Shown: one piece after another, positions 14,718-58,840 of the stretch
Position numbering within the stretch: position 1 is the first letter of the stretch
Layout: the number at the start of each line of letters is the position of its first letter
From: Candidatus Pacearchaeota archaeon
GTDB lineage: Archaea > Nanobdellota > Nanobdellia > UBA10117 > JAFCGI01
Assembly: GCA_017608235.1 (NCBI GenBank)
Contig: JAFCGI010000005.1
Span: forward strand, 46,930 to 110,929
Length of the DNA: 64,000 nt
Reading direction: 5' to 3'
Made by a program: the position numbers and the translations under genes
The notes under the pieces: generated by a model
Database searches by the model: none
What the model was told of the DNA's origin: nothing
What the model saw: only the letters and a program-made list of their open reading frames with translations

Positions 14718-14720
14718 TTT

Positions 14721-14874: not shown

Positions 14875-14971
14875 CTTATATTTCTCTTAAATTAATAGAA
14901 AAAAGTGATAAGGACTCATTAGTAGTCAGTTCCGCTTTTAAGGCTTCTCTGCGCATATTATACTGATAACC

Positions 14972-42900: not shown

Positions 42901-42910
42901 ATCTTTTTTC

Positions 42911-43447: not shown

Positions 43448-43478
43448 ATTTTGAAATTGGAAATTTTAATATATAAAT

Positions 43479-43588
43479 ATAGTTAATTACTAAAGAATTA
43501 ATAGTTAATTACAGAAGGATTAATAGTTAATTACTAAAGAATTAATAGTTAATTACAGAAGGATTAATAGTTAATTACTAAAGAATTA
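43479..43588. repeat. Intergenic tandem repeat, 22-nt unit x5 (attaatagttaattac + taaaga or agaagg, alternating)
   Basis: Direct reading. Lies between the rps10 3' end and the start of the membrane-protein gene. Confidence 0.85.
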
Positions 43589-43894
43589 CTCGATAACTTG
43601 TATTTCTATATTAACATCTTTTGGAATTGGTACTCTCATAACTAAATGCAAGGCTCGTTCATCAGCAGCTAAATCAATCATACGCTTATGAATTCTCATT
43701 TCGTATCTTTCCCAGGTTTCTGTACCTTCACCATCTGGGGCTTTTCTTACTGGAATTCTAAGGATTTTTGTAGGAAGATTTATTGGACCTGAATAGTTTA
43801 CTCCTACATTCTTAGCAATATCAGTAATCTGATTAGCTATGCTATTCAATTTGTTTATGTCTGTGCTGTAAAGCTTAATTCTTGCTTTTGGCAT
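43586..43894 (-). CDS. rps10: Ribosomal protein S10
   Basis: MPKARIKLYSTDINKLNSIANQITDIAKNVGVNYSGPINLPTKILRIPVRKAPDGEGTETWERYEMRIHKR is typical S10. Inverted relative to tuf. Confidence 0.8.
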   Translation of the reverse strand: MPKARIKLYSTDINKLNSIANQITDIAKNVGVNYSGPINLPTKILRIPVRKAPDGEGTETWERYEMRIHKRMIDLAADERALHLVMRVPIPKDVNIEIQVIE

Positions 43895-43999: not shown

Positions 44000-44074
44000 T
44001 GGGCCCGGGCGGATTCGAACCGCCGATCCCCGCCTTGTAAGGGCGGTGTCATAACCAGACTAGACCACAAGCCC
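44000..44074 (-). tRNA. tRNA-Val (anticodon TAC)
   Basis: Reverse complement reads GGGCTTG-TG-GTCTAGTCTGGTTATGAC-A-CCGCC-CTTACAA-GGCGG-GGATC-GGCGG-TTCGAAT-CCGCC-CGGGCCC-A. Confidence 0.75.
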
Positions 44075-44077
44075 ATA

Positions 44078-44207
44078 AGCCCCGAGTGGGAGTCGAACCC
44101 ACGACCTGCGGTTATCTTGCCTTTGCTGGTTTCCTTCACCAGCGTTTCTTTCTTGAAGAAAGGCTATGTTACAAGACCGCCGCTCTACCAGACTGAGCTA
44201 TCGAGGC
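44078..44207 (-). tRNA. tRNA-Thr (anticodon TGT) with a roughly 56-nt intron at the anticodon loop
   Basis: Reverse complement: acceptor GCCTCGA/TCGGGGC+T; D-arm GCTCAGTCTGGTAGAGC; anticodon stem GCGGT/ACCGC with loop CTTGTA|intron|A; T-arm GTGGG-TTCGACT-CCCAC. Confidence 0.65.
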
Positions 44208-44568
44208 ATATGAGGAAATGACTTTTTATGGTTTATAACTATTTTGTTTATTAACAGTAGATAGGAAAGTGCAAAAGTGGGAACTGAATGAAAAATTCCT
44301 TCATTAGAAAGCTTGAGACCATCATTCTTGAGGTATTGTAGTGCGAGAGCTTTTTGTTTGCTTCTATAGTGCTGGATCATTCCATAAACTCTCATAATAT
44401 CTCTATTCTCTTTTCTGTATTTATTCTGTCTTTGCCTCTCTATCTCTGGATTATTAAGTATCCATTCTTTAGATTTGGCTCTAATAGCCTTTTTATTTCT
44501 TTGGTAGTATTCTCGCTTTTTCTTTAGATTATATTCTCTATTTTTTAACTTCCATTCTCTGCTTAATT
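44198..44568 (-). pseudogene. Open reading region with no start codon, directly after the stop of the zinc-ribbon gene in a different frame. It continues the EY..EYY..NK repeat pattern and its stop codon overlaps the tRNA-Thr 5' end. Either a frameshifted C-terminal extension or a remnant
   Basis: Own translation: ...REYNLKKKREYYQRNKKAIRAKSKEW... following ...KEYRKEYYEKNKEKY* of the upstream ORF. Confidence 0.25.
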
Positions 44569-44865
44569 TTAGTATTTCTCTTTATTTTTCTCATAATACT
44601 CTTTTCTGTATTCTTTGGGTGTTTTAGAAAATCCATTAAATAACAGTTTTAAACTCTTTTTAATCTCTTTAATCCTTGCTAAATGTTCTTTATATTCTTT
44701 ATCAAATCTTTCCGCATCCTCAATTCTTCTTCTTTTGTTAAATTCCTGAAATTCCTTGACTTCTATCTCTTTTTGAGGAAACAATCTAGAACATAAAGCA
44801 CATTTGTATTTAGGTCTAGAAGAAAGCAATACAAGTTTGTATGAGTAGTTTGGACATCGTGGCAT
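44569..44865 (-). CDS. Zinc-ribbon protein, last gene of the island operon
   Basis: CPNYSYK...CALCSR. The start overlaps the stop of the upstream nuclease gene. Confidence 0.45.
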   Translation of the reverse strand: MPRCPNYSYKLVLLSSRPKYKCALCSRLFPQKEIEVKEFQEFNKRRRIEDAERFDKEYKEHLARIKEIKKSLKLLFNGFSKTPKEYRKEYYEKNKEKY

Positions 44866-45893
44866 TATTTCTTCTCCTTTTTCTTTAAAGCTTCTTTATT
44901 TTCTCTCGCATATTTTATATTCTGAAGTTGTCTTTTCCCATTTTCAATGAGTTCATTAAAAGTAACTATTTTAATATGAGGTCTTAATTGAAAATTCCAA
45001 TTTTTTATAAGTCTCTGTTCCCCATCACTTATATTGTAACCCATAACAATTATTCCGGAAGGGGCTTGTATTTTATAAGTGCCCTCTTCAGATAAACCAC
45101 TATACAAATCTGTTCTACGCAAGTAGAGAATCAATTGATTAATCCCTTGTGCTAGTTCATCAGAAATATATAATCTTGAGTCATCTTTTTTCTTGAAAAA
45201 TGGATTAAGATTTGGGCTTTTGAATTCAAAAACTTTATCTTCCCCAATTTCAGTTTTTATGTGAAGATCTACTGCTAATTGTGGATCAACTGCTTTTTCA
45301 GAAGCCTTAACCTCACAATCTATGCCTAATATCCATTTACTTTCCTTAAGTTTCGTTTTTACTAAATGCTCTTCTCTTTTAGTACCCTTACTAATTCTTT
45401 TTACTTCATTTTCAAATTCAGTTAGTTTAGATTCATAATCTTCTATTTTATCAATTACTTCCTTAGCAAGTGTTATCTCAATTTGTTGTTTACTTAAACG
45501 TTCCTCAGCATCCTTGAGTTTTATTTTTGCTTCTACAAGTTCATTGTTTAACAATTCAACTTTTTCTTTATATATTGAAACTTCTTCTGAAACATCTTCT
45601 ATTTGTTTACCCCAAATTTTATATGCGAATCCTTTAACTGTTTTAGAAAACCATTTGAACCATTCTGAGAGATTAATTCTATTAGGAATCCAAAAACCAG
45701 ATTTATGTGTTTTAAAATAAGGTTTTGTTGATGCAGATTGAACTCTTATACCTTCATATCCTTGTGTATTTTTTTCAGAAGAGATTTTTGATTTATAAGT
45801 TCCTTCTTCAAAACTGTCTGATTTAATCTCTTTAATATGCTCTGATTTATAAAAATCATTTGTTCTCTTCTTTTTAGTTTTCTTTTTTGTCAC
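44865..45893 (-). CDS. PD-(D/E)XK-superfamily nuclease with an N-terminal basic/coiled-coil region (Shedu/DUF4263-like or RecB-like fold)
   Basis: In the C-terminal domain: VDLHIK...KVFEFKSP (D...ExK) and QGINQLILYLRR (QxxxY). The N-terminus is a K-rich segment followed by heptad-like coiled coil. Confidence 0.5.
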   Translation of the reverse strand: MTKKKTKKKRTNDFYKSEHIKEIKSDSFEEGTYKSKISSEKNTQGYEGIRVQSASTKPYFKTHKSGFWIPNRINLSEWFKWFSKTVKGFAYKIWGKQIEDVSEEVSIYKEKVELLNNELVEAKIKLKDAEERLSKQQIEITLAKEVIDKIEDYESKLTEFENEVKRISKGTKREEHLVKTKLKESKWILGIDCEVKASEKAVDPQLAVDLHIKTEIGEDKVFEFKSPNLNPFFKKKDDSRLYISDELAQGINQLILYLRRTDLYSGLSEEGTYKIQAPSGIIVMGYNISDGEQRLIKNWNFQLRPHIKIVTFNELIENGKRQLQNIKYARENKEALKKKEKK

Positions 45894-45894
45894 T

Positions 45895-46572
45895 TTATTT
45901 TTCTCCTCTTATTTTACAAAACCCACACTCTTTACTTGCCTTTGGCTCTTTTCCTTGTAAAATTTTAATGGCTTGTTTGAAAACTTTTTCCCCTCTTTTA
46001 GGATCTGTTTTAATTTTAATCAATTTGGTATCAAATATTACTTCTCCTGTTTCTGTAACATGATTAGGATAATAAAACAATAGATAAGTATAGTCTTCTG
46101 TTTGATAACCATTTTCTCTTAATAAGAAATTATAAAGATCCATTTGATTGATATAATGCTCATGAGTATCTTCTTTTAGAGGAAATCCTCTTGTTTTGTA
46201 ATCTAAAACAATTAGTTTCTTTCCTTTCTTTAGAATATTATCTACTGCTCCATGTAATAAAATATTTGATTTTTTGTCTAGTAATTCTATACCCTTAAAA
46301 TTGCTTCTCCAGATTTTTAGTTTTTCTTTATCATTGAATAATTTACATCCATCATTTGCACATTCTTGTTCTTTTAGTTCTGGTGGAAGTTCTCCTTTTT
46401 CCATAAACCTATCAAAATGCTCTTTTAGAACTTTATCCATCCCTGAAGGTAAACTTGGGAATGGTGTGTCTGGTCTTCTTTCTTTTTTAACTAATTGAAG
46501 CCAGAAACATCTAGGACATTCTAGCATTAAATTCAATGAACTTGGTGATATTTTGTATGTTGATTTATTCAT
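45895..46572 (-). CDS. Cas4-like / RecB-family exonuclease with Fe-S cluster cysteines (DUF83 type)
   Basis: N-terminal ISPSSLNLMLECPRCFWL (the Cas4 signature). LHGAVDNI...LIVLDYKT (D, D/ExK), QMDLYNFLL (QxxxY). C-terminal cysteines CGFCK. Confidence 0.65.
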   Translation of the reverse strand: MNKSTYKISPSSLNLMLECPRCFWLQLVKKERRPDTPFPSLPSGMDKVLKEHFDRFMEKGELPPELKEQECANDGCKLFNDKEKLKIWRSNFKGIELLDKKSNILLHGAVDNILKKGKKLIVLDYKTRGFPLKEDTHEHYINQMDLYNFLLRENGYQTEDYTYLLFYYPNHVTETGEVIFDTKLIKIKTDPKRGEKVFKQAIKILQGKEPKASKECGFCKIRGEK

Positions 46573-48893
46573 TTGAATATTATCTCCTTTAATTTTTTAA
46601 TTTCATTTTCATTTAATAGATTTATTCCTTTTGGATTTTGAATTATATCTCCTTTTAATTTAATAAATGGCTTATTTTTTTTATCAAATGTCAATTCTTG
46701 TTTAAAATAGATAACTCCTGAGATAATATCTGTATTTGGATTTGTTTTATGTATTGAATCGTCTTTTCTCGAAGGATATTGATCTATTGTTTTGCCAGTT
46801 TTTTTATCCATAACTAAGGTTAAAGATAAACTTCCAAAGAAGGTATTGATTATTTCATGTTCATCAATAGTTGAACCACTTTTATCTATAACTATAAAAA
46901 TAATATCACTCCTTTTTTTATTTAACATTTCTTTTAGAGTTACATCTGATTTAATCTGTTTTTTAAATTTATTTTTTATTTTTTTAAGAGCTTCATTAGG
47001 CATGGCTACAGCACTATTACTTAATCTTAAATTCTTATTAATTTCAGGTCTTGTAATCTCAAAGTAAATATCTTTATTGAATAAATTTACCTTAAGATCA
47101 AGATTATTGTTTTTTTTATTTGGTGGAAGGGGCTCTATAACCTCAATATGATTATTATCAAACTTATTTATAAAAATAAGTTCACTAAAATAATTCCAAA
47201 ATTTATTTTCATTAAACAAGTTTTGTTTTATATCCTTGACTATATGTTCTTTTTTCTTGAATTTTTCATTTGCTTTTGTCTCAATTATTTTAATGTTCTT
47301 ATTCAATTCATAAAGATAAGCTTTTGGCCAAAATCTACTTCTAACAAAATCTATCTTAAATGCCTTATTTAATTCAGAATCTTTTTCTGAAATTTTAATA
47401 TCTTCAAGAGTTGGTTGTTCATTTTCTCCAAGCCAAATAAGAGGAGTGTATCGCTTTTTGTTTTCTGCTTCTATAATTACCTCTTTTGCAAATTTATACA
47501 AGTTAGTGTATTTTTTGAGATTTTTTTTAATTATATCAAAGTTGTATTTTTCTTTCCTATTTCTCAATTGAGTTAAAAGATTTTCAGCAAAGTTAATTAA
47601 ATAGTCATAATCGTCTTTAGAAAAAGGTTTTTTGTTTTTCCTTTCATTGTATTTATTTTTATTAAACTCGATGAAATTTTTTTCCTTAGATATTTTAATT
47701 AGATTGTCTATAAGTTTAATAATAACATCTTTATTTTTAATATCCTTAAAAATATTTCCAATTAAGACATTATTTAACTCAAAAAATAAATATTTTTCAT
47801 CTTTATTCTTTAGATTAAATTTTAGTATCTGATCCAAAGCATAGCTTATATGGAATTTTGAGAGTGTTTTAAATAAATGAGGTAATGTAACAATATATAA
47901 TTTTGATTTTTTATTTTGGATTCTCTTGTAATTTTCAAGGATATATCTAATAAAAAGTCTATTCTTTTTTACTAATTCCTCAAGTGCCCAGTCAAAATGT
48001 CTTAATTTAAATTCCATATCTTTATTTAACCAATAAATAAACAAATCAGATATTTGTTTATATGGCTGAGGAAACTTCCTTAATACTTCAACGATTTTGT
48101 CTATTATGATATAATCCATATCTTTAGAATATTTAATAAGTTCAAAGATTTGTTTTTGGTTTAATAAGTCTTTATATGTTAACCTATCAAACAATAAATA
48201 AGTAATATTTTTGTCCTTTAGTTTTATTAAATCAAAGAGTTTATTATAAAAATAGTCTTTATTTTTATTAAAAAATATTAAACAAACATTAATGAATTCT
48301 TGCAGTATTTTTTTATCTTGGTTTTTAGATATTTTATCAAAATAAGAATAAGCTTCTTTACTTAGTCTTTGGGATTCATATTTATACAAAATAGCTTTTA
48401 ATATAGAATTAGTTTGTGGATATTCAAGCTTTTTATTTAAAAATTCCTCCAGGATTGAATCATTTTTTACTGAATATCCTCCAAGGATTAAACCAGCCAC
48501 TACCTTAAAATCACTATCTTTAGATTTAGTTATTATCTTCTTATAAAATTGTAGAGCAAATGGTTTATTTTTTCCAATATCTTTTAGTATATTTAGGAAA
48601 GGCCCTTGAGCCATATCTCTTTTTATTTTATTGTTTATTTTTTCTAATAATTCAAGGTATTTATCTGTGTTATCTGCTAACTCATATGTAACAGTAGTAA
48701 TCAATTCAAAATATCCCCAAAAGTCAGAACTAAAGAGAAAATCATCAATTAATTTATATTTATCCTTTTCAGATAGCTTAGATTTATGACTATTGTAAAC
48801 TTTGATTTGTTCTTCAAATTTGTAATATTTACCTTTTAAGTCTTCTTCAAGGCTCATATTCTTGGCACCATCTTCCATTTTTCTTGATTGCAT
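46569..48893 (-). CDS. Large (774 aa) predominantly alpha-helical protein with a distinct C-terminal domain, function unknown; no P-loop found
   Basis: Extremely K/N/I/F/Y-rich and more AT-rich than the neighbouring genes. Start and stop overlap both flanking genes in the operon. Confidence 0.45.
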   Translation of the reverse strand: MQSRKMEDGAKNMSLEEDLKGKYYKFEEQIKVYNSHKSKLSEKDKYKLIDDFLFSSDFWGYFELITTVTYELADNTDKYLELLEKINNKIKRDMAQGPFLNILKDIGKNKPFALQFYKKIITKSKDSDFKVVAGLILGGYSVKNDSILEEFLNKKLEYPQTNSILKAILYKYESQRLSKEAYSYFDKISKNQDKKILQEFINVCLIFFNKNKDYFYNKLFDLIKLKDKNITYLLFDRLTYKDLLNQKQIFELIKYSKDMDYIIIDKIVEVLRKFPQPYKQISDLFIYWLNKDMEFKLRHFDWALEELVKKNRLFIRYILENYKRIQNKKSKLYIVTLPHLFKTLSKFHISYALDQILKFNLKNKDEKYLFFELNNVLIGNIFKDIKNKDVIIKLIDNLIKISKEKNFIEFNKNKYNERKNKKPFSKDDYDYLINFAENLLTQLRNRKEKYNFDIIKKNLKKYTNLYKFAKEVIIEAENKKRYTPLIWLGENEQPTLEDIKISEKDSELNKAFKIDFVRSRFWPKAYLYELNKNIKIIETKANEKFKKKEHIVKDIKQNLFNENKFWNYFSELIFINKFDNNHIEVIEPLPPNKKNNNLDLKVNLFNKDIYFEITRPEINKNLRLSNSAVAMPNEALKKIKNKFKKQIKSDVTLKEMLNKKRSDIIFIVIDKSGSTIDEHEIINTFFGSLSLTLVMDKKTGKTIDQYPSRKDDSIHKTNPNTDIISGVIYFKQELTFDKKNKPFIKLKGDIIQNPKGINLLNENEIKKLKEIIFK

Positions 48894-49567
48894 CGGTATA
48901 AATACCCATTTGGGATTATTTCAAAATTTTTTGTACTATTTTTTTTGCAAATTACAACGTCACATCCATAAATGTATGGACTTCCTGTAAACTGAAAATC
49001 AATCAAAGAGATGTTATTTAAAGTATTAACTGAGTGTCTAATTATTTGTTTAAAATTTCTTTTTAGTTCATAGGATTTTAATTCATTTAATTGAGATAAA
49101 ATATAATTTCCTCTTCGCAAATCATTATTTGAATCAAGACAAGTCTCTTTACCAGATCCTATGAATCCTTTTTCAATAGATTTGATCTCATAGTCTTTTA
49201 TGTTATTGGAAACCATTTTCGAGAAATCAATTTTGTAACACTTAAATGAAGCGATATTAAGTAGAATACAAGAAACATCAATTTTTGAGAGTCGGGGATA
49301 TGTTTTTTTAATGATAGCATATATTTTTTTGAATTGTAGCCTGTTGTTGATATTTGCGTAAAACATATCTTTTATTTTTATTATATTAGAACTATTCCCT
49401 GCAAAACCCAATATCCAATTTTTTCTTATTTCTACTTTTTTTGCAAAATTATGTGGAAAGACTTCATATCCTTCAGTCGCCCGGATAGTATCATGTATAT
49501 CAGTTTCCAACCTATCTGCAACAAGTACCCACGCATTCTTCAATGGAAAGGCAAAAATAGAAGTCAT
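48854..49567 (-). CDS. HslV/proteasome-beta-like N-terminal-nucleophile hydrolase (Thr directly after the initiator Met, no propeptide)
   Basis: [17 protein letters not shown] aligns with HslV [31 protein letters not shown] aligns with HslV [16 protein letters not shown] matches the HslV/proteasome GSGG block. SD GAGGGG lies 11 nt upstream. Confidence 0.55.
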   Translation of the reverse strand: [237 protein letters not shown]

Positions 49568-49634
49568 TTTTCATTAACCCCTCAACAAAATTGTAATTTC
49601 TTCTTTGACCAACCCATATAATTCATGAACCATT

Positions 49635-52340: not shown

Positions 52341-54508
52341 TATTTATTTCCCCCTTTTAATTCTATAACTTTCGTTGTATCGTTTCCAAAAATATCAACA
52401 ACTTTAATAGCAATTTTTCTTTTTCCAGAAATTTTCCTGAAGGGAGTTTTTAATTCTAATTCTCTATTCTTCTTTGTTCTAAATGACTGCCATTCATTTT
52501 CAAAGATATAATCTCCTGTCCATTTTTCTTCGTATTCTTTTTCAAAATCCAGCTTTCCTGTTTGTTTCTTTTGTTTTTCTATTTTGATTATTTCTTTTTT
52601 GCTTTCAAAATCAAAATCTACTGCCCAATAATCAATCCAGTCAGTCCATTTTTTAGTTAAAACATCCTGTGTAACAATTCCATTTTTATCTTTTGATACC
52701 TTGATTATATTTCCATTCTCTACTACAATTTTATTGCTTCCATTTTTTAAACTGGCTTCAACATGTTTTATTGAATCCTGATTATAGAAAACAGAAAAAT
52801 CAGCTAATTCAATAGCCACGCCATCTTTAATATAATGTGGTGTAACTTCAATATATGAAACATCAGTAAATACAACTTGATTCTTTTCAACTGCTCTTTT
52901 ATCGAATACTTCTCTTGGGATATGTTTTAGTGCTAAATCAACACCTTTGGCTTTTGCTTCTTCTTGAATATGGGGAAATAATCCCATTTCAAATTCAAAT
53001 GCAAGAATGTCAACTTTAGTTATTTTGTTTTTAATTGCTTCCTCGATAGCCTCTTCAATAAATAATCTTCCCACTGGTAAATTTATAGGACCAACTGCAA
53101 CTAATCTATTTAATTTCTTTCCTGAAAAGGTATTATATCCTGTAACTCCCTCTGCTCTGTAAGCATGAAGGATTAGTTTAACAAAATCTTTTTCCTTTTT
53201 TGCTATTTGTTTTTGTTTTTCTTCATCCCTTAAATTTGAATTTACTCCAACATAATGTTGTCTTTCATATTTTCCAAGATTTAATATCTCAAATGCCCTG
53301 AAATCTTTTCCATCTTTTTTTAATTGTCTTTGAACATCAATCATCCTTTTTCTTGTTGTGTGAATTGAGAACTTTCCTAAATCAGAACCAATCCATTTTC
53401 TTCCTAATTTTTCTGCAACTGCTAAGGTAGTTCCTGAACCACAGAAGAAATCGCAGACAATGTCGCCTTCATTTGATGATGCTTTTATTATTCTTTTCAT
53501 CAATTTTTCAGGTTTTTGTGTAGGATAGTCTAATAATTCGCTTACTATTCTTCCAACTGGTGAAATATCTACCCACCAATCTTCTAATTGTTTTCCTTCT
53601 TCCTCAAGAGCTCTCAGTTTCTCTTCACTAGTTTCAGTTGTTCTAAATCCTAAACCTCCCTTACCATGTATGCCAGATTTATGTTTGATTCTTTGGATGT
53701 TAAAATTAGTATTCTCAGATTTAGCATAGAAAAGGATAGTATCATGTTTTCTTGTAAACCCTTTTTTATTTTTTAATGGAGAACTGTAACACCAAATAAT
53801 TTCATTCCTAAAATTCTGTTTTCCAAACACTTCATCCAACAGCAACCTCATATATCCAGAGACTCTCCAATCACAATGAACATAAATACTTCCATCAGGA
53901 GCAAGTAAGTCTCTCATTAGCATTAACCTTTCATACATCATTGCAATAAAACTATCTGCTCCCTTGCCCCACGTATCTCTGTAAGCCAATTCTTCCAAAA
54001 CATTCGGTTGCTTTGTAAATTCATCATCTCCAATATTTATCTTCATAGAGAAATCAGCACCAACATCAAATGGTGGATCAATATAAATTAATTTAATTCC
54101 TCCTTGTTTTTCAATCTCTTCTCTTAATGAACCATTTTTCAAACTTGAGAGAATTAATTTGTTATCTCCCCAAATAAGCTTATTAGTCCATCCTTTTAAT
54201 TGTCTCCCTCTTGTATCTGTTTCAAAATCAATTAAGCTAACTTGTTTTCCTCCCCCTAAACCTTCTTTTCTTGGTTCATCCACTTGTTCAATAACTTGAA
54301 AAGGAAGAACGACATTAGTAACATCTCTAGATTTTCCGTTCCAAACTAATTCAACTTCCCTTTTATCTCCAAATAATAAAAATCTATATTCTTCTGGTAA
54401 GGGAACTCCCTTTTTTAAGAAACTTGTTATATCTCTAATTTCATTGTCAGATAAGACTATTTTGGTTTTTGATTCAAATTTTGATTTAACTTGTTTCTTT
54501 TTAGCCAT
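52340..54508 (-). CDS. mod: Type III restriction-modification Mod subunit (beta-class N6-adenine/N4-cytosine DNA methyltransferase)
   Basis: Motif IV DPPF (IYIDPPFDV) lies upstream of the YPTQKP block and motif I FFCGSGTT. Its stop overlaps the res start. Confidence 0.8.
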   Translation of the reverse strand: MAKKKQVKSKFESKTKIVLSDNEIRDITSFLKKGVPLPEEYRFLLFGDKREVELVWNGKSRDVTNVVLPFQVIEQVDEPRKEGLGGGKQVSLIDFETDTRGRQLKGWTNKLIWGDNKLILSSLKNGSLREEIEKQGGIKLIYIDPPFDVGADFSMKINIGDDEFTKQPNVLEELAYRDTWGKGADSFIAMMYERLMLMRDLLAPDGSIYVHCDWRVSGYMRLLLDEVFGKQNFRNEIIWCYSSPLKNKKGFTRKHDTILFYAKSENTNFNIQRIKHKSGIHGKGGLGFRTTETSEEKLRALEEEGKQLEDWWVDISPVGRIVSELLDYPTQKPEKLMKRIIKASSNEGDIVCDFFCGSGTTLAVAEKLGRKWIGSDLGKFSIHTTRKRMIDVQRQLKKDGKDFRAFEILNLGKYERQHYVGVNSNLRDEEKQKQIAKKEKDFVKLILHAYRAEGVTGYNTFSGKKLNRLVAVGPINLPVGRLFIEEAIEEAIKNKITKVDILAFEFEMGLFPHIQEEAKAKGVDLALKHIPREVFDKRAVEKNQVVFTDVSYIEVTPHYIKDGVAIELADFSVFYNQDSIKHVEASLKNGSNKIVVENGNIIKVSKDKNGIVTQDVLTKKWTDWIDYWAVDFDFESKKEIIKIEKQKKQTGKLDFEKEYEEKWTGDYIFENEWQSFRTKKNRELELKTPFRKISGKRKIAIKVVDIFGNDTTKVIELKGGNK

Positions 54509-54755
54509 TTTTCATCTCTTTAACAGCTTCTTCAGGTCCTTTTAGTTTGTAAAGTCTTATTCTGGAATCTTGAGGATCTAGTCTAGCTTCTAACCAGCCA
54601 TATTTTTTAAGGTCAGAAATGCACAGGCTTACGACCCTCTCATCCTTCTCTTTAAGGGCTTCTATGGCCTGTTTATGGGTAAATTCTTCATTTCTAAATT
54701 TATTCCAAAGTGTTGAATATCTTTTCATAATCCATCGTGGAAGCGGTTCTATCAT
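54501..54755 (-). CDS. Small winged-helix-like protein upstream of and overlapping mod; possible regulator (controller-like)
   Basis: MIEPLPRWIMKRYSTLWNKF...LDPQDSRIRLYKLKG. Start placed at the internal Met; the longer track ORF N-terminus looks spurious. Confidence 0.35.
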   Translation of the reverse strand: MIEPLPRWIMKRYSTLWNKFRNEEFTHKQAIEALKEKDERVVSLCISDLKKYGWLEARLDPQDSRIRLYKLKGPEEAVKEMKNG

Positions 54756-54949
54756 ATTAAGTCCCTCATGTGCATCACATAAGTAATATGTAGTCCTATT
54801 TAAATATATTGTTTTGCATTTTAAGCCAGAAATAAAGTGTATTCTACAGAATAACAATGTTTAAATAGTAGTTATGCTTATTACATAAGTATTATGTATA
54901 TAAAATAAGTATCAAGAGAGACTCTCCGCAAAGATCATCTCTCCTGGTA

Positions 54950-56526
54950 ATGGAGTCCGCGATGAACTCCACAATAGAAAGAATAGAAAAGGAACTTAAT
55001 AAAACTTTTGAGTCTGTTAGTGAGAAATGGATTAAAACCTCTTCTGTTCTTAAAAAATTGAACTTACAATTAATAGAACAAAGACAATCTAAATTCAATC
55101 CAGAAAGCTTAATTAAATTATATCTTTACAGAAGAATAAAAGGCATCCATTATTATGAAAAGTTAATAGAACATTTAGAAAATAATGAAACTGATTCTTA
55201 TGATCTTGGATTTTCAAATGGAAATAATAACAAGTTAGAATTTCCAACAAAAAGAGCATTTAATAAATTCTTCAAAAATAAAATTGATGATAATCTCAAA
55301 TTACAATTAGATAATCTTACTAAAAATATTCTAAGAATAGCAACTCAAAAAGGAATAGTCTTAGATTTAGAATTAGTCAATAAAGCAATAAAAGATAAGA
55401 AAGATAAAAAGAGAGAGAGAAAAGAAAAGCATTTCATGAAGCCACTAAATTGGTAAAGAAATTAGTCTATCCTCAAATTGATATTAAAATTAAAGAGAAT
55501 GGAAAATTTACAACTAAGGATTTATTGGATGTTTTAGTTCATATTGCTTATTCTCATGATTTTACTACAAACGGCTCTTCTACATTCCAGGAATTATATC
55601 CTGACTTAAAAGCTCCTTCTGGAGATTTAATGTTATATCATTTTTCTAAATTGCAATCAGTAGATAAAATAAAAGATATGTTTATTTCAATATTTGATGT
55701 TATTTTTAACTTTGCTAAACAGAATTACAAGCTGTTAAATAGAAGAAAAATAGACATTGCGTTTGATGTCCACAAAATCCCCTATTATGGCAATAAGAAT
55801 GATTTTTATGTAACAGAAGGAAAACATGAAAGAGGAACAACTCACTTCTATCAGTTCTTAACATGCTCAATAGTCGTTGCTGGGCAGAGATTTAGTATTG
55901 ATGCTATTCCTATTCATAAATTTGATAGTATTGAAAATTTAGTAGATCAAAGTTTAGAAAGGGTTAAACAAAAAATTCATATCAATAAAGCATATCTTGA
56001 TAGAGGTTTTGATAAACCAAAAGTAATCAACGTTATCAAAGCTCATAAAGTAAAGTTTATCATGCCAAAAGTTAGAAGTGAAACTGTAAAGGCATGGATG
56101 AGAAAATCTGAGGAATGCAAGGCGAGAGTTATTGAAAACTTTGAAATTGGTAAAGGAGAGAATAAGGCTATTGTGAACTTAATCCTTGTAGATGATGAAG
56201 AAGGGATAAAGAGAGCTTTCATTACTAATTTTCACATTCCTGAACAACTATCACATTATCTTTATAATTGGTATTCAAAAAGATGGGGAATTGAAACAGG
56301 GTACGGGCAGTTTGACCATGATTTTAAAGCAAAAACCACTACTAAGAATTATCACATTAGATTATTCTATTTCTTATTTTCAGTATGTTTGTATAATCTT
56401 TGGGTCTTGGTAAATATTTGTGTTTCTTTATCTCTTCATGGTAGATTGTCAGAAAAGCCAATAATTACATCTAAGTTATTTGCAGTTGTTCTTTACAAAG
56501 TTGCTTATGAAGATCCTCCAACGTGA
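54950..56526 (+). mobile_element. IS4-family (DDE_Tnp_1) transposase gene, split into two overlapping ORFs (54950..55456 and 55450..56526) by a frameshift in an A-rich tract. Terminal inverted repeats not resolved
   Basis: DDE residues in IAFDVH, AYLDRGF and the signature YSKRWGIETGY. Both frames are open across the agaaagataaaaagagagagagaaaagaaaag tract. Confidence 0.6.
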
Positions 56527-56714
56527 TGGTTAATCCTGTTAGTTATAGAATTGTTCTAGTTGGAACTCTCCTATTTCTCTCTTATTTCTAATAAATCACA
56601 ACCTAAAATTTTAACTTCTCCAGAATTTTCTTAAGATTTAATGAGAACCAAAGATAAAATCTTATAAACATAGCCATTCTATTTATCAATTCAGTTTACT
56701 TTCTATCTACTGTA

Positions 56715-57689
56715 TTAATATTCTAAGGTTTTTTTAAAAATATCAAATACTCTTTCCAAGTCTTTATGATTTGCTTTATCTCTTAGCTCAATCCTAGCTG
56801 AAGCCTTAATCATGGATATTATTGACTCTATTGTTTTGGGAGTTACCTTATATAACAATGAATGTTCTTTAGATTTAAGAGTTGTGGAAAAATCTTTTAT
56901 TAGGTCTAAAAACTGATTTGGAATTTCTACCTTTATTTGATTTGCATGATTAATATATTCTCTAATAAAATCCATATCTGCTTGTTTTGGCTTTTGTTTT
57001 TCAGACATAACTATCTTTTCTGCTATGTCTGCAAATTGTTCTAAAGAGGCATCCCTAATAATAAATGCTAAATTAAAATCTGATAGTTTTGTATAAGAAG
57101 GTATTTGTGACTTAATAATATGTATAGAATAATCTTCAATATTCTTTTTTGCATCTATAACTTTTGGTAGATTTTTTGAAGATATTTTAGATAATGAATC
57201 TAATATACTGGTTTTTCCAGTTCCAGAATTTCCAAATAATAGCATGTTTAGTGAATCCTCTGTGAATAATTGAAGCATGCATGCTTGCTTAACTTCTCTA
57301 AGTCCTACTATATTAGAAGCAATATATTGTGGAATTATATTCCAAGCTCTTTCTTTAAACTCTTTGAATTTTTCTTTAAGATATTTTCTTTCTATCTCTT
57401 GATTTAATATTGTTAGATCTTTTTCTTGCGATTCTATTTTTGGAATTATATTTTTTCCAGAAATTAGGAAAGAGAAATCCTTTTTCTTTCGAACTAATTT
57501 AGCTTTTTTTTGCTTGATTTTTGTTTTTATAAATGAGATTTGATCTTTGCTTAGATATTCTGATAAGAAATTTAGATCTGTTTTTTCTTCTTTAGTTAAA
57601 GGTCTTAATCTAAGAAATAAATCAATAGTATTATTTAGACTATTTTCTATTATTTGAATTGTACCTTCCTTAGCAGTTTTCTTTGCCAT
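56715..57689 (-). CDS. Mini-MCM-like AAA+ ATPase (MCM helicase core homolog, 324 aa)
   Basis: IVGLREVKQACMLQLF...NMLLFGNSGTGKTSIL parallels the MCM IYGHEDVKKA..LLVGDPGTAKSQ region. Walker A GNSGTGKT. Lies 20 nt from the tRNA-Met 3' end. Confidence 0.5.
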   Translation of the reverse strand: MAKKTAKEGTIQIIENSLNNTIDLFLRLRPLTKEEKTDLNFLSEYLSKDQISFIKTKIKQKKAKLVRKKKDFSFLISGKNIIPKIESQEKDLTILNQEIERKYLKEKFKEFKERAWNIIPQYIASNIVGLREVKQACMLQLFTEDSLNMLLFGNSGTGKTSILDSLSKISSKNLPKVIDAKKNIEDYSIHIIKSQIPSYTKLSDFNLAFIIRDASLEQFADIAEKIVMSEKQKPKQADMDFIREYINHANQIKVEIPNQFLDLIKDFSTTLKSKEHSLLYKVTPKTIESIISMIKASARIELRDKANHKDLERVFDIFKKTLEY

Positions 57690-57708
57690 TCTCTAAAAAA
57701 ATAGTAAA

Positions 57709-57823
57709 TGCCGAAGGAGGGATTTGAACCCTCGACTTCCAGCTTACTTACGCAGTAAGCATACAGAAAACAACTTTTCTGCGATATGAGACTGGCACTC
57801 TAGCCAGACTGAGTTACTTCGGC
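57709..57823 (-). tRNA. tRNA-Met, elongator type (anticodon CAT; an Ile2-type cannot be excluded), with a roughly 40-nt intron at the anticodon loop
   Basis: Reverse complement: acceptor GCCGAAG/CTTCGGC+A; D-arm ACTCAGTCTGGCTAGAGT; anticodon stem CCAGT/GCTGG with loop CTCATA|intron|A; T-arm GAGGG-TTCAAAT-CCCTC. Confidence 0.65.
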
Positions 57824-58262
57824 TTGCTTTTCCTTAAGGTTGGGTTTATTTTTAAGTGTTACCAATTCAAATAAATCTTGCTATCTACTTATTTTAACAA
57901 AAAGAGAAAATATTTTAAATAGAATGTAAACTTAACATAAAAGAATGGAAGATTTAGTTAATATTATAATTTTGTTGTATGAAAACTATAAAGTTACTAA
58001 ATTTATTGCTAACACAAAGGAGCAATATTCTATAATCATGTGGAAGAAAGAATTTAATAAATATGGTTTAGACCTTCTTAAAAGTAAAAAAGTAATAACT
58101 GAAATGGAAATTGATTCAATAGTAACAATTGATGATATAGGTTGTATTTCTGAGTATAGTATAGACAACATACAAAAGTATCCTATGAAAGAAGTTTTTA
58201 TTGATAATCAACCAACTCTAGAGCCATACTACAAAGAGATCTTAGGCAATCTAAGGTATGAA

Positions 58263-58397
58263 TGGACCGGTCGGGATTCGAACCCGAGGCCTCTCCATAG
58301 CAATAAATAAGTATTTAACTTAAATATTCATGCCAAGGAAGCGATCTATTGTCCTGCATTGTCTAATGACATAGCAACCGGACTGATCTACCGGCCC
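58263..58397 (-). tRNA. tRNA, isotype unresolved. The precursor is about 135 nt with apparently more than one intron, including one in the D-loop
   Basis: Reverse complement: acceptor GGGCCGG/CCGGTCC+A; T-arm TCGGG-TTCGAAT-CCCGA; D-stem GATC...GATC. An internal TTGCTATG is repeated twice. Confidence 0.45.
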
Positions 58398-58458
58398 ATG
58401 GTATAAGAATCTAAAAATCATTTATAAAAGTTTGTAAAATTAGAAAAAAAGAAAAAAC

Positions 58459-58665
58459 TTATTCTTCCTTGGCTTGTGATTCGCTTAGTAAGGAAAGTTT
58501 CTCTGAAAGTTCATCTAATTTCTTTGCTAGTTCCTCTTCTAAATCTACAGATTTTTCAATCCAGCTAGAAAGTAAAGTATTATCTACTTCGCCTGCTTGG
58601 AATTTGTCAATTATTTGTTGTTTTAGTTGTTTTAATTCTTCAATAATAGAGTAAATTTGTTCCAT
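58459..58665 (-). CDS. Small coiled-coil protein (68 aa), hypothetical
   Basis: ORF with a heptad-like, E/K/L-rich sequence. Confidence 0.3.
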   Translation of the reverse strand: MEQIYSIIEELKQLKQQIIDKFQAGEVDNTLLSSWIEKSVDLEEELAKKLDELSEKLSLLSESQAKEE

Positions 58666-58765
58666 AGTTTCACCTCAATTTATATAATAAAAATTAGGAA
58701 CTTATCCTTTAAAAATCTAATGAATATCTCTTTAATTTTTAAAGAAATGTATAAAGAATGATAAA

Positions 58766-58840
58766 TGGGCCCGACAGGATTCGAACCCGCGACCTATCGG
58801 TTAAGAGCCGATCGCTCTGACCAGGCTGAGCTACGAGCCC
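58766..58840 (-). tRNA. tRNA-Lys (anticodon CTT)
   Basis: Reverse complement reads GGGCTCG-TA-GCTCAGCCTGGTCAGAGC-G-ATCGG-CTCTTAA-CCGAT-AGGTC-GCGGG-TTCGAAT-CCTGT-CGGGCCC-A. Confidence 0.75.

What the first reader, a model, noticed from the sequence alone, without database searches (positions are those of the whole stretch)
44000..57823. 13.5-kb tRNA-bounded accessory island (tRNA-Val/Thr to tRNA-Met) combining RM, nucleases, an IS and a mini-MCM
Between the 5' end of tRNA-Thr and the 3' end of tRNA-Met, every gene is accessory. The content is a five-gene nuclease/peptidase operon, Type III mod-res with a small wHTH gene, a split IS4 transposase and a mini-MCM-like ATPase 20 nt from the tRNA-Met 3' end. 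A replication-type MCM next to a tRNA 3' end is the classic footprint of an integrated archaeal plasmid or provirus. No integrase was found, so the element may be decayed or of the split-integrase type. The terminal ORF overlapping the tRNA-Thr 5' end (44198-44207) is also atypical.
Basis: partly seen in the sequence, partly recalled or inferred. Interest (0 to 1): 0.6.

Follow-up and report, generated by a model that had tools for sequence, protein, structure and literature searches.

The report
Defence-carrying transposon inserted upstream of tRNA
The "island" is one 12.5-kb cut-and-paste transposon, not an integrated plasmid or virus; it carries anti-virus genes into a tiny DPANN archaeon, and its relatives almost always land about 46 bases in front of a tRNA gene, a habit so far known mainly from eukaryotic retrotransposons.

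Summary
The island is a single 12,458-bp element (44255-56712). It has 16-nt terminal inverted repeats (CAGTAGATAGGAAAGT) and a TATTAA target-site duplication. One end carries an ISH3-like DDE transposase, frameshifted here. The other end carries a zinc-ribbon gene, also frameshifted, that reads out through the repeat into tRNA-Thr.

The cargo is a Type III mod-res pair and a Shedu-like / Cas4-like / two-unknown gene module. No integrase or att repeat exists.

The mini-MCM and tRNA-Met lie outside the element. In the closest related DPANN genomes sampled, the order tRNA-Lys, tRNA-Ala, tRNA-Met, MCM, tRNA-Thr recurs as chromosomal synteny. Removing the element restores MCM, 43 nt, tRNA-Thr.

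Copies with about 90% identical element proteins sit in hosts whose EF1A and S10 are only 62-68% identical, and they carry different defence cargo. In 7 of 8 insertion sites read at DNA level, a repeat end lies 45-47 nt upstream of a tRNA gene, just upstream of its TATA box. Five further sites, inferred from read-through peptides, point to four tRNAs and one 5S rRNA gene.

No description of such targeting for an archaeal DDE transposon was found.

The parts
44078..44207 (-). Target gene: tRNA-Thr(TGT) with a 58-nt intron. Its 5' end (44207) lies 47 nt from the transposon end.
   Evidence: Rfam 55.6 bits; sequence read.
44208..44254 (-). 47-nt spacer holding the tRNA-Thr promoter. A TATA-like TTATAAA sits at 44232-44238, which is -31 to -25 relative to the tRNA 5' end.
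   Evidence: The same geometry is seen in six other insertion sites.
44249..44254 (.). Left copy of the target-site duplication, TATTAA.
   Evidence: An identical hexamer lies at 56713-56718.
44255..44270 (+). Left terminal inverted repeat, CAGTAGATAGGAAAGT. The terminus CAGT fits the ISH3 family's CRGT.
   Evidence: An identical repeat lies at the ends of related elements in L165, L167, L170, L173, L176, L178 and L179.
44198..44865 (-). Zinc-ribbon end gene (ZRP), a pseudogene here. Residues 1-97 are in one frame (44865-44575) and residues 98-204 in another (44575-44255). The ORF then reads through the repeat into host DNA and stops at the TAG of tRNA-Thr positions 8-10.
   Evidence: tblastn against the intact 226-aa homologue; 121 homologues of about 204-212 aa; translations.
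44865..45893 (-). Cargo: 342-aa protein with a Shedu SduA_C nuclease domain.
   Evidence: Pfam PF14082, E 1.1e-11, 45.6 bits against a cut-off of 27.
45895..46572 (-). Cas4-like PD-(D/E)XK nuclease, 225 aa. It recurs in related elements.
   Evidence: Pfam PDDEXK_1 3.4e-12; PADLOC Cas4 1.5e-11; 91-96% identical to genes in the L170 and L176 elements.
46569..48893 (-). Cargo: 774-aa protein of unknown function.
   Evidence: No Pfam, NCBIfam or PDB hit; weak PADLOC OloA hit at 4.5e-6; 199 cluster representatives at E<=1e-3, mostly about 750 aa.
48854..49567 (-). Cargo: 237-aa protein of unknown function.
   Evidence: No hits; AF2 pLDDT 31.
49635..52340 (-). Cargo: Type III restriction subunit (res), 901 aa, intact.
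   Evidence: Pfam ResIII 1.9e-15; PADLOC REase_III 6.3e-22; 92-93% identical to res in the L165, L167 and L168 elements.
52340..54508 (-). Cargo: Type III methyltransferase (mod), 722 aa, intact. The segment 53535-53818 is not similar to the L167/L168 gene, whose flanking parts are 86-87% identical at DNA level; it may be the target-recognition region (position not tested).
   Evidence: Pfam N6_N4_Mtase 3.9e-47; PADLOC MTase_III 7.5e-118.
54501..54857 (-). Small gene divergent from the transposase. The likely true start is the ATG that gives 84 aa (54501-54755). It is an element backbone gene, not an RM component.
   Evidence: 44-46% identical to the 83-aa genes next to the transposase in L178 and at the same place in L179.
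54962..56526 (+). ISH3-like DDE transposase, a pseudogene here. Residues 1-143 are in one frame (to 55390) and residues 156-520 in another (from 55429). The frameshift lies in a purine run.
   Evidence: Pfam DDE_Tnp_1. The intact 520-aa homologues match NCBIfam ISH3 at 1e-41. tblastn; sequence.
56697..56712 (-). Right terminal inverted repeat, (T)ACTTTCTATCTACTG, with a one-base deletion relative to the consensus.
56713..56718 (.). Right copy of the target-site duplication, TATTAA. It contains the stop codon of the MCM gene (56715-56717).
56715..57689 (-). NOT part of the element. This is a degenerate mini-MCM of a chromosomal family from Woesearchaeota-type (DPANN) archaea. About 95 aa, including Walker B and sensor 1, are deleted.
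   Evidence: Alignment A1; 160 relatives in GTDB species genomes; synteny.
57709..58840 (-). NOT part of the element. This is a tRNA cluster that recurs next to the MCM gene in close relatives: tRNA-Met(CAT) 57709-57823, tRNA-Ala(GGC, two introns) 58260-58400, tRNA-Lys(CTT) 58766-58840.
   Evidence: The same order sits upstream of MCM in L002 and L006, and parts of it in L011, L016, L001 and L014.

Best explanation
Window 44255-56712 is one 12,458-bp cargo-carrying DNA transposon of an ISH3-related family.

Anatomy (shown). It has 16-nt terminal inverted repeats. One end holds a DDE transposase gene and a small divergent gene. The other end holds a zinc-ribbon gene (ZRP) that has no stop codon of its own and reads out through the repeat. 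A variable cargo bay lies between them. Here the bay holds an intact Type III mod-res pair and a four-gene module: two unknown proteins, a Cas4-like nuclease and a Shedu-domain nuclease.

Insertion (shown). The element inserted with a short staggered cut, leaving a TATTAA duplication. The site lies between the stop codon of a chromosomal mini-MCM gene and the promoter of tRNA-Thr(TGT), 47 nt upstream of the tRNA 5' end and about 15 nt upstream of its TATA box. Both flanking genes remained intact.

State of this copy (shown). The transposase and the ZRP gene each carry a frameshift, so it is probably no longer autonomous.

Family behaviour (shown). Related copies have moved between deeply divergent DPANN hosts, swap defence cargo, and almost always sit 45-47 nt upstream of tRNA genes. 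One site inferred from a peptide tail lies upstream of a 5S rRNA gene.

Mechanism of targeting (inferred). The transposition complex actively selects the region just upstream of stable-RNA gene promoters. The 184-residue N-terminal extension of the transposase or the ZRP protein may act as the target selector. This would give the element a safe landing site in very compact genomes.
For: Ends of the element:
- The inverted repeat CAGTAGATAGGAAAGT lies at 44255, and its complement ends at 56712. TATTAA flanks both ends.
- The same end architecture occurs in L165, with a perfect 5-bp duplication GTGAT, and in L176, with AGTAA / GGTAA.

Shared sequence with other copies:
- Similarity between the window and L165/L167/L168 stops at the repeats. 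It covers 44255-44873, 49639-54510 (inverted) and 54936-56712, at 77-86% DNA identity (alignments).
- The transposase is intact at 520 aa in other copies. Its best profile is NCBIfam ISH3 (1e-41).
- The termini CAGT and the roughly 5-bp duplications match the published ISH3 family description: CRGT termini, 4-5 bp duplications (PMC2266710).

Mobility between hosts:
- Comparing the window with L176, host proteins are EF2 64.6%, EF1A 67.8% and S10 61.6% identical.
- Element proteins are far closer: transposase 89.9%, Cas4-like 95.4%, ZRP 91.8%.
- None of 164 MCM-centred or S10-centred loci from relatives carries the island genes.

Empty site:
- Removing the element and one TATTAA copy gives MCM stop, 43 nt, tRNA-Thr(TGT).
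- Relatives show MCM followed by tRNA-Thr at 0-35 nt (L001, L002, L013, L118, L122).

Targeting:
- In 7 of 8 sites read at DNA level, a repeat end lies 45-47 nt upstream of a tRNA gene transcribed away from the element. The tRNAs are seven different ones: Thr-TGT, Gln-CTG, Ser-GCT, Thr-CGT, Phe-GAA, Thr-GGT and Ser-GGA. Rfam confirms the 5' ends of Thr-TGT and of Ser-GCT, Thr-CGT, Phe-GAA, Thr-GGT and Ser-GGA.
- Five further ZRP homologues have read-through tails that translate a tRNA or a 5S rRNA starting 46-49 nt from the repeat.
- In L165 the pre-insertion intergenic region was about 230 nt long, yet the insertion still lies 46 nt upstream of the tRNA.

Composition:
- The cargo region deviates from the rest of the window; the MCM region does not.
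Against: - Only three elements have both ends in the DNA held here. Their duplications are 6, 5 and an imperfect 5 bp, so the exact length is not settled.
- The ISH3 profile score (143 bits) is below NCBI's curated cut-off (225). The element is 4-10 times longer than described ISH3 members.
- One site (L170) has no tRNA within 1.6 kb of the ZRP end, and its other end is not in the locus.
- Some tRNA-Ser sites may descend from one insertion rather than being independent.
- The five peptide-tail inferences are biased towards detecting read-through into RNA genes.
- Active targeting is inferred from positions only. No transposition assay exists, and the roles of ZRP, the small gene and the Cas4-like gene are unknown.
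- In compact genomes, selection against harmful insertions could sharpen an apparent site preference.
Confidence: 0.82

Rival explanations
1. It proposes an integrated archaeal plasmid or provirus that entered by integrase-mediated recombination at the 3' end of tRNA-Met. The mini-MCM would be its replication gene, and the integrase would be lost or split.
For: - An MCM-like gene starts 20 nt from the tRNA-Met 3' end.
- The region is accessory and compositionally atypical.
- A virus- or plasmid-like contig (L169) carries a close mod homologue.
Against: - No integrase domain occurs in any ORF.
- No duplicate of any tRNA segment occurs in the window.
- The tRNA-Met / MCM / tRNA-Thr arrangement recurs in the closest relatives, none of which carries an island gene next to the MCM.
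- The MCM region has background composition.
- This MCM lacks Walker B, sensor 1 and the arginine finger.
- The element's own ends, repeats plus duplication, exclude the MCM gene.
Confidence: 0.02
2. The island is a transposon, as in the best explanation, but there is no active tRNA targeting. Insertions would be near-random in AT-rich DNA. In these very compact genomes, only insertions in the few neutral bases between an upstream stop codon and a tRNA promoter would survive.
For: - In the window and in L176 the duplication overlaps or abuts the stop codon of the upstream gene, so the permissive space there is only a few bases.
- Duplications are AT-rich in the window and L176.
- L170 and the ZRP end of L165 are not next to tRNAs.
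Against: - Promoter-upstream gaps of protein-coding genes are roughly 20 times more numerous than those of tRNA genes, by an estimate from assumed gene and tRNA counts rather than a count made here. Yet 7 of 8 sites are at tRNAs, and the peptide tails add four more tRNAs and a 5S rRNA.
- In L165 about 185 nt of free intergenic DNA was available upstream, yet the insertion lies 46 nt from the tRNA.
- The spacing holds within 45-47 nt across seven different tRNAs and hosts.
- A homologue only about 44% identical (P0234) shows the same 47-nt spacing.
Confidence: 0.13
3. The island is a mosaic defence island built piecemeal at a tRNA hotspot. An ordinary IS would sit at one side and an unrelated solo repeat or ZRP remnant at the other, and the 12.5 kb never moved as one unit.
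For: - Cargo modules differ between copies, and mod-res is inverted relative to the ends in the window compared with L165.
- L167 and L168 lack a recognisable right repeat.
Against: - Identical hexamers flank the outermost repeats of the whole 12.5 kb.
- The same ZRP-end / transposase-end pairing, with duplications, bounds elements of 5.1 kb (L176) and 11.7 kb (L165) in unrelated contexts.
- Deleting the whole unit restores the conserved MCM / tRNA-Thr junction.
Confidence: 0.03

Closest known systems
ISH3 family insertion sequences (archaeal, IS4-related DDE transposons)
   Same: - The DDE transposase has ISH3 as its best profile match, covering the whole 298-position model.
- The termini begin CAGT, which fits the family's CRGT.
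- Target duplications are about 5 bp.
- The host range is archaeal (PMC2266710).
   Different: - The profile score is below the curated family cut-off.
- The transposase has an extra N-terminal region of about 184 residues.
- The element is 5-12.5 kb, not 1.2-1.5 kb.
- It carries two extra backbone genes (ZRP and an 83-aa gene) and a variable defence cargo.
- It shows a strong site preference upstream of tRNA genes, which the family description read here does not report for ISH3.
Tn7-like transposons, including archaeal ones and CASTs
   Same: - They are large DNA transposons with tight target-site choice, often at tRNA genes.
- Their cargo is dominated by defence systems (PMC8649781; bioRxiv 10.1101/2025.07.27.667033).
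- They have a dedicated safe-site logic.
   Different: - No TnsA, TnsB, TnsC or TniQ domains are present in any element protein.
- There is a single IS4-type DDE transposase.
- As recalled, not checked here, Tn7-type elements insert beyond the 3' end of the recognised gene; this element inserts upstream of the tRNA 5' end.
- Orientation is preferred, not fixed: 6 of 7 sites have the ZRP end next to the tRNA.
tRNA-gene-targeting retrotransposons of compact eukaryotic genomes (Dictyostelium TRE5-A, yeast Ty3)
   Same: - They insert in a narrow window upstream of tRNA genes; TRE5-A inserts about 50 bp upstream.
- TRE5-A insertions have also been profiled on the extrachromosomal rDNA element (PMC5391098); here one inferred site lies upstream of a 5S rRNA gene.
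- This is interpreted as a safe haven in gene-dense genomes (PMC3159450, PMC5391098, PMC5006619).
   Different: - Those elements are RNA-mediated and use reverse transcriptase or integrase. They recognise RNA polymerase III factors (TFIIIB/TFIIIC).
- This one is a DNA transposon in an archaeon, which has a single RNA polymerase.
- This is a functional analogy only, not homology.
Passenger-carrying bacterial transposons (unit transposons such as the Tn3 family)
   Same: Terminal repeats and one transposase mobilise passenger genes, including restriction-modification and other accessory genes.
   Different: - They belong to different transposase families.
- A 2019 survey stated that such passenger-carrying DNA transposons had not been detected in archaea (PMC6563490).
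- They have no tRNA-upstream targeting.
Integrated archaeal plasmids and proviruses at tRNA genes (SSV-type or pTN3-type, with MCM or primase replicons)
   Same: It is an accessory block next to a tRNA gene, with an MCM-like gene nearby.
   Different: - It has no integrase and no att duplication.
- The junction is at a tRNA 5' side, through the promoter region.
- The MCM gene lies outside the element and is chromosomal in relatives.

Membership tests
ISH3 family IS | DDE transposase matching the ISH3 family profile | tested here: inconclusive
   NF033541: E 1e-41, 143 bits, model positions 2-297 of 298, but below the curated cut-off of 225. The next best profile is IS4 at 9e-8.
ISH3 family IS | Terminal bases CRGT in inverted repeats | tested here: met
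   Both ends are CAGT.... Family description in PMC2266710.
ISH3 family IS | Target-site duplication of 4-5 bp | tested here: inconclusive
   L165 has GTGAT (5 bp, perfect). The window has TATTAA (6 bp). L176 has AGTAA / GGTAA (4 of 5).
ISH3 family IS | Simple IS of 1.2-1.5 kb with the transposase as the only gene | tested here: not met
   Elements are 5.1 kb (L176), 11.7 kb (L165) and 12.46 kb (window), with 4-9 additional genes.
Integrated archaeal plasmid or provirus at a tRNA gene | Tyrosine or SSV-type integrase, intact or split | tested here: not met
   Pfam scans of all ORFs of 60 aa or more between 42.9 and 59.8 kb, and of homologous element genes, found no integrase or recombinase domain. 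Coding density leaves no room for a hidden one.
Integrated archaeal plasmid or provirus at a tRNA gene | att direct repeats, meaning a partial duplicate of the target tRNA at the far boundary | tested here: not met
   No 14-mer of any tRNA recurs outside tRNA genes. 22-23-mers from the tRNA-Met 3' half, allowing 3 mismatches, match only themselves.
Integrated archaeal plasmid or provirus at a tRNA gene | The replication gene (MCM) belongs to the mobile unit | tested here: not met
   The MCM gene lies outside the repeats and the duplication. Homologues occur in 160 loci from GTDB species genomes; in the ten closest they sit in the same tRNA cluster, and none of the 84 loci examined has an island gene beside the MCM.
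Tn7-like transposons | TnsB-type transposase with TnsC ATPase and a TniQ/TnsD selector | tested here: not met
   No such Pfam domains occur in any element protein of the window, L165 or L167, nor in the precomputed domains for L170-L179.
Type III restriction-modification | Adjacent mod (N6/N4 methyltransferase) and res (ResIII helicase-nuclease) genes | tested here: met
   PADLOC MTase_III 7.5e-118 and REase_III 6.3e-22; Pfam N6_N4_Mtase and ResIII. The ORFs are intact and overlap by one base. Enzymatic activity is not testable here.
Shedu defence system | SduA protein with the C-terminal DUF4263/SduA_C nuclease domain | tested here: inconclusive
   Pfam SduA_C at 1.1e-11 is above its cut-off. 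No PADLOC Shedu model hit was found; there is only a weak PDC-M22B hit.
MCM replicative helicase (for the neighbouring mini-MCM) | AAA+ core with Walker A, Walker B, sensor 1 and arginine finger, plus the N-terminal OB domain | tested here: not met
   Walker A and the lid are present. A gap of about 95 aa removes Walker B and sensor 1, and SRF is changed to SDF. No MCM_N or OB domain is present.
tRNA-targeting retrotransposons (TRE5-A, Ty3) | Reverse transcriptase or retroviral-type integrase, with an RNA intermediate | tested here: not met
   No such domains are present. The resemblance is in target choice only.

The most novel reading that the evidence does not exclude
DPANN archaea host a family of DDE transposons that actively recognise small stable-RNA genes (tRNA and 5S rRNA) and integrate at a fixed position about 46 nt upstream, immediately upstream of the BRE/TATA promoter. 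The recognised feature could be the gene itself or its transcription initiation complex. This would be a prokaryotic, DNA-based counterpart of Ty3/TRE5-type targeting. The end-encoded zinc-ribbon protein, or the transposase's N-terminal extension, would act as the target selector. The elements would serve as shuttles that carry interchangeable defence systems between deeply divergent DPANN hosts.
Probability: 0.55. Interest if true: 0.85.

Novelty: new variant of a known kind. Interest (0 to 1): 0.72.

Why it matters
- **Cargo transposons in archaea.** A 2019 survey stated that passenger-carrying DNA transposons had not been detected in archaea (PMC6563490). Since then, Tn7-like elements have been reported there. 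This element would show that an archaeal IS family (ISH3-like) has grown into a cargo shuttle.
- **Defence gene flow in DPANN.** The element moves restriction-modification and nuclease systems between very divergent DPANN archaea. These organisms have tiny genomes, and how they acquire defence genes is poorly understood.
- **Target choice.** The fixed position about 46 nt upstream of tRNA genes parallels the safe-haven strategy that eukaryotic retrotransposons evolved in compact genomes. Because archaea have one RNA polymerase with TBP/TFB, the system could give a simple, testable model of how a transposase reads a transcription unit. A compact DNA-insertion system that lands at a defined distance from tRNA promoters would also be of practical interest.
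- **Annotation.** 'MCM next to a tRNA' is not by itself evidence of an integrated element in these lineages.

Tried and rejected
- **att search.** The repeat finder, 22-23-mers allowing 3 mismatches, and all 14-mers of the ten tRNAs found nothing beyond similarity between tRNAs.
- **Integrase search.** Pfam, NCBIfam and PADLOC scans of all ORFs found none.
- **Window's own contig.** It is not on record for exact look-up. It is also absent at 100% identity from the GTDB and JGI scans, so no same-species empty site could be fetched.
- **IS-only repeats.** I first looked for inverted repeats just around the transposase (54.8-56.7 kb). Only weak candidates appeared. The true left repeat is 10.7 kb away. 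It emerged only after comparison with L165 and L167.
- **'Synteny breakpoint after MCM'.** I first read the displaced tRNA-Thr(GGT) at 23.9 kb as evidence of a rearrangement at the island. The simpler explanation is the insertion itself, since MCM followed by tRNA-Thr(TGT) is restored when the element is deleted. The EF1A/S10 inversion is a separate, unexplained event.
- **Viral collection.** The repeat sequence, ZRP and the transposase have no relatives in IMG/VR.
- **ZRP fold.** The model is confident (pLDDT 86), but Foldseek against the PDB found only generic zinc ribbons at E>0.4.
- **237-aa protein.** The single-sequence AF2 model has pLDDT 31, so the peptidase idea cannot be tested.
- **774-aa protein.** It belongs to a family of about 200 cluster representatives, but that library holds no names or genomic context.

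Full report
**1. What is in the window**

The window has about 30% GC. Its core genes and MCM homologues place it among DPANN archaea of the Woesearchaeota/Nanoarchaeota type.

- tRNA-Val(TAC) at 44000-44074(-).
- tRNA-Thr(TGT), with a 58-nt intron, at 44078-44207(-).
- A CAU-anticodon tRNA, with a 42-nt intron, at 57709-57823(-).

ARAGORN in default mode missed the intron-containing genes.

The genes between these tRNAs are as described:
- a 342-aa protein with a Shedu SduA_C nuclease domain;
- a 225-aa Cas4-like PD-(D/E)XK nuclease;
- 774-aa and 237-aa proteins with no annotation;
- an intact Type III res (901 aa) and mod (722 aa);
- a small gene upstream of mod;
- a DDE transposase in two frames;
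- a 324-aa MCM-like protein.

The 'peptidase' label for the 237-aa protein could not be supported by any library, by the PDB or by structure prediction.

**2. The plasmid or provirus reading fails its own tests**

- No integrase or recombinase domain occurs in any ORF.
- No partial copy of tRNA-Met, tRNA-Thr or tRNA-Val exists anywhere in the window.
- The mini-MCM belongs to a family with 160 relatives in GTDB species-representative genomes of Woesearchaeota/Nanoarchaeota.
- In all ten closest loci scanned with Rfam, the gene sits among same-strand tRNAs. ARAGORN types them as tRNA-Lys(CTT), tRNA-Ala(GGC), tRNA-Met(CAT), MCM, tRNA-Thr in most of them, though not every locus shows every member.
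- In some relatives this cluster is followed by genes leading to the RNA polymerase operon.
- The window has the same Lys-Ala-Met-MCM order on its minus strand. The tRNA-Ala at 58260-58400 has two introns and a G3:U70 pair, read.
- None of the 84 MCM loci carries any island gene.
- The MCM region has background composition, whereas 45-55 kb deviates.
- The window's MCM is also degenerate. An in-frame gap of about 95 residues removes Walker B and sensor 1, and the arginine-finger motif SRF reads SDF.

So 'MCM 20 nt from a tRNA' is ancestral chromosomal synteny here, not an integration scar.

**3. What the island is**

A search with Mod found homologues at 82-83% identity. Their contigs (L165/L166, L167/L168) share several features with the window:
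- Res at 92-93% identity and Mod at about 82%.
- An intact 520-aa transposase at 85-91% identity.
- A 226-236-aa zinc-ribbon protein that corresponds to the window's two small ORFs at 44198-44865.

DNA similarity covers exactly three blocks:
- 44255-44873;
- 49639-54510, which is inverted relative to the ends;
- 54936-56712.

The genes between the blocks differ, and so do the flanking host genes.

Reading the block edges shows the ends:
- The left edge begins CAGTAGATAGGAAAGT at 44255.
- The right edge ends ACTTTCTATCTACTG at 56712, its reverse complement with a one-base deletion.
- TATTAA lies immediately outside both ends, at 44249-44254 and 56713-56718.
- L165 has perfect repeats flanked by GTGAT on both sides.
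- L176 has a 5.1-kb element flanked by AGTAA / GGTAA.

The transposase's best profile is NCBIfam 'ISH3 family transposase'. The E-value is 1e-41 and the match covers the whole model, but the score is below the curated cut-off. The published ISH3 family description fits these ends: termini CRGT, duplications of 4-5 bp, archaeal hosts (PMC2266710).

The island is therefore one 12,458-bp transposon that carries passenger genes.

**4. Anatomy and state of this copy**

The backbone has four parts:
- the terminal repeats;
- the transposase (54962-56526);
- a small divergent gene (54501-54755 or 54857), 44-46% identical to the 83-aa genes at the same place in L178 and L179;
- the zinc-ribbon gene (ZRP) at the opposite end.

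ZRP has no stop codon inside the element. Its last two codons, CTA CTG, are the outer end of the repeat. Each homologue therefore ends with a different tail read from host DNA.

In the window both backbone genes are frameshifted:
- the transposase between 55390 and 55429, in a purine run;
- ZRP at about 44575.

This copy is therefore probably not autonomous.

The AF2 model of ZRP is confident (pLDDT 86). It shows a zinc ribbon, one long helix and six short basic helices. It has no informative structural neighbour.

The Cas4-like gene is 91-96% identical in the window, L170 and L176. It may be a semi-conserved element gene rather than free cargo.

**5. Mobility**

The window and L176 hosts are very distant: EF2 64.6%, EF1A 67.8% and S10 61.6% identical. 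Their element proteins are 90-95% identical.

None of 164 loci centred on MCM or S10 in relatives has the island genes. The only hit is a remote 27% Mod paralogue in L138 and L141.

Cargo differs in every copy:
- L165/L167: Type III RM, a Csa3/HFX_2341-like protein, another PD-(D/E)XK protein and a DSPc phosphatase.
- L170: an AlbA_2/HATPase protein, an MmeI-like RM enzyme and a RelA/SpoT protein.
- L178: a methyltransferase fragment and CTD11, MC6/MC7 and DUF2326-domain proteins.
- L179: a 1228-aa helicase-nuclease.

These are mostly defence-type genes.

**6. The empty site**

The right TATTAA contains the MCM stop codon (56715-56717). Deleting the element and one TATTAA copy gives MCM stop, 43 nt, tRNA-Thr(TGT) 5' end. 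Relatives show the same kind of junction, with MCM followed by tRNA-Thr at 0-35 nt in L001, L002, L013, L118 and L122.

**7. Target choice**

In eight insertion sites read at DNA level, I measured the distance from the outer end of a repeat to the 5' end of the nearest tRNA gene transcribed away from the element:

| Locus | Distance (nt) | tRNA | Element end nearest the tRNA |
|---|---|---|---|
| window | 47 | Thr-TGT | ZRP |
| L165 | 46 | Gln-CTG (contains an intron) | transposase |
| L167 | 46 | Ser-GCT | ZRP |
| L173-175 | 45 | Thr-CGT | ZRP |
| L176/177 | 45 | Phe-GAA | ZRP |
| L178 | 47 | Thr-GGT | ZRP |
| L179-183 | 46 | Ser-GGA | ZRP |
| L170-172 | none within 1.6 kb | none | other end not in the locus |

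The tRNA 5' ends come from Rfam for the window and for L167, L173, L176, L178 and L179, and from ARAGORN for L165.

Every spacer has a TATA-like box 13-24 nt from the repeat, which is about -32 to -25 relative to the tRNA 5' end. The element therefore sits just upstream of the promoter.

ZRP read-through tails give five more sites, inferred at peptide level:
- P0139: tRNA-Ser, 46 nt.
- P0150: tRNA-Ser, 49 nt.
- P0199: a tRNA, 47 nt.
- P0234: only about 44% identical to the family query, 47 nt. Its tail matches the translated window tRNA at 30016.
- P0204: 47 nt. Its tail matches a translated 5S rRNA that Rfam confirms in L113.

With roughly 45 tRNA genes per megabase-sized genome (an assumed figure, not measured here), a 5-nt window upstream of each covers about 2e-4 of positions. 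Seven of eight sites cannot be chance.

Selection alone is a weaker explanation, for two reasons:
- Promoter-upstream gaps of protein-coding genes should be far more numerous (again an estimate, not a count).
- In L165 about 185 nt of free intergenic DNA was available upstream, yet the insertion is 46 nt from the tRNA.

I infer, but have not shown, active selection of stable-RNA gene promoters or genes.

**8. Comparison with known systems**

- **ISH3 family.** The element works like an ISH3-type IS in its chemistry, ends and duplication. It fails that family's size and gene-content definition and only partly meets its profile.
- **Tn7-like elements.** It resembles them in carrying defence cargo and choosing tRNA-linked sites (PMC8649781; bioRxiv 10.1101/2025.07.27.667033). 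It has none of their proteins and inserts upstream of the tRNA 5' end rather than beyond the 3' end.
- **TRE5-A and Ty3.** Its target geometry resembles theirs most closely, at about 50 bp upstream of tRNA genes; TRE5-A insertions have also been profiled on the extrachromosomal rDNA element (PMC3159450, PMC5391098, PMC5006619). This is analogy, not homology.
- **Prior reports.** A 2019 survey stated that passenger-carrying DNA transposons had not been detected in archaea (PMC6563490). Four literature searches found no description of this family or of tRNA-upstream targeting by an archaeal IS. Absence from the held library is not proof of absence.

**9. Verdict**

The segment is accessory, mobile and tRNA-linked, but it is a transposon and the MCM gene is not part of it.

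Novelty is 'new variant of a known kind'. Interest is fairly high because of the target specificity, the cargo-shuttle role in DPANN archaea and the direct testability.

The main uncertainties are:
- the small number of complete elements;
- possible non-independence of some tRNA-Ser sites;
- the unproven targeting mechanism.

Noticed in passing
window 56715-57689 (-): The mini-MCM belongs to a roughly 435-aa family specific to Woesearchaeota-type DPANN archaea, with a unique N-terminal domain, an MCM AAA+ core and a lid. Here it has an in-frame gap of about 95 aa that removes Walker B and sensor 1, and SRF is changed to SDF. Shorter remnants (131-212 aa) occur at the same tRNA-flanked position in L118, L122 and L125. 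The gene therefore seems to be decaying, or being repurposed, in several lineages.
   Followed up: partly
window 14720-14876 (+): This looks like a tRNA gene with two introns (GCTCCTGTAGTCTAGTCCGGT ... GGGTTCAAATCCCGCCGGGAGCA), directly after tRNA-Arg. Both ARAGORN and Rfam at gathering threshold missed it.
   Followed up: no
window 58260-58400 (-): This is tRNA-Ala(GGC) with two introns, one in the D-loop region and one 3' of the anticodon, and a G3:U70 pair. Rfam gave only a weak tmRNA hit. ARAGORN in intron mode miscalls it as Leu. At least 7 of about 12 tRNA genes in the window contain introns.
   Followed up: partly
window 43479-43588: A perfect 2.5 x 44-nt (5 x 22-nt) tandem repeat, ATAGTTAATTACTAAAGAATTA / ATAGTTAATTACAGAAGGATTA, fills the gap between the S10 stop codon and the start of the 178-aa ORF. 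Its function is unknown.
   Followed up: no
window 41632-43894: EF1A (+) and S10 (-) are convergent, with an unannotated 178-aa ORF between them. Nearly all relatives have the colinear order EF2-EF1A-S10. This is a separate local rearrangement, not explained by the transposon. tRNA-Thr(GGT), together with the genes that follow MCM in relatives, lies at 23.9-30 kb on the other strand.
   Followed up: partly
window 53535-53818 (within mod): About 285 nt of mod have no similarity to the L167/L168 gene, although the flanking parts are 86-87% identical at DNA level. This pattern could reflect a swap of the target-recognition domain, giving a different methylation and restriction specificity; the domain boundaries were not mapped.
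   Followed up: no
L169 9641-12006: A virus- or plasmid-like contig, with many small ORFs, Thy1 and an AAA_24 protein, carries an orphan mod gene 80% identical to the window's, plus only the first 64 codons of res. This suggests the RM module also travels on other mobile elements.
   Followed up: no
L001, L002, L012, L013 (MCM 3' ends): In several relatives the MCM stop codon directly abuts the next tRNA gene (0 nt). The tRNA promoter must then lie inside the MCM coding sequence. Spacers upstream of tRNAs place the TATA box at about -32 to -25 from the mature 5' end. This suggests that tRNA transcripts start at or very near the mature 5' end.
   Followed up: no
window 46569-48893 (-): The 774-aa cargo protein belongs to an unannotated family of mostly about 750-aa proteins. 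It has 199 cluster representatives at E<=1e-3 and 39 at E<=1e-30. There is a weak PADLOC hit to OloA (Olokun).
   Followed up: partly
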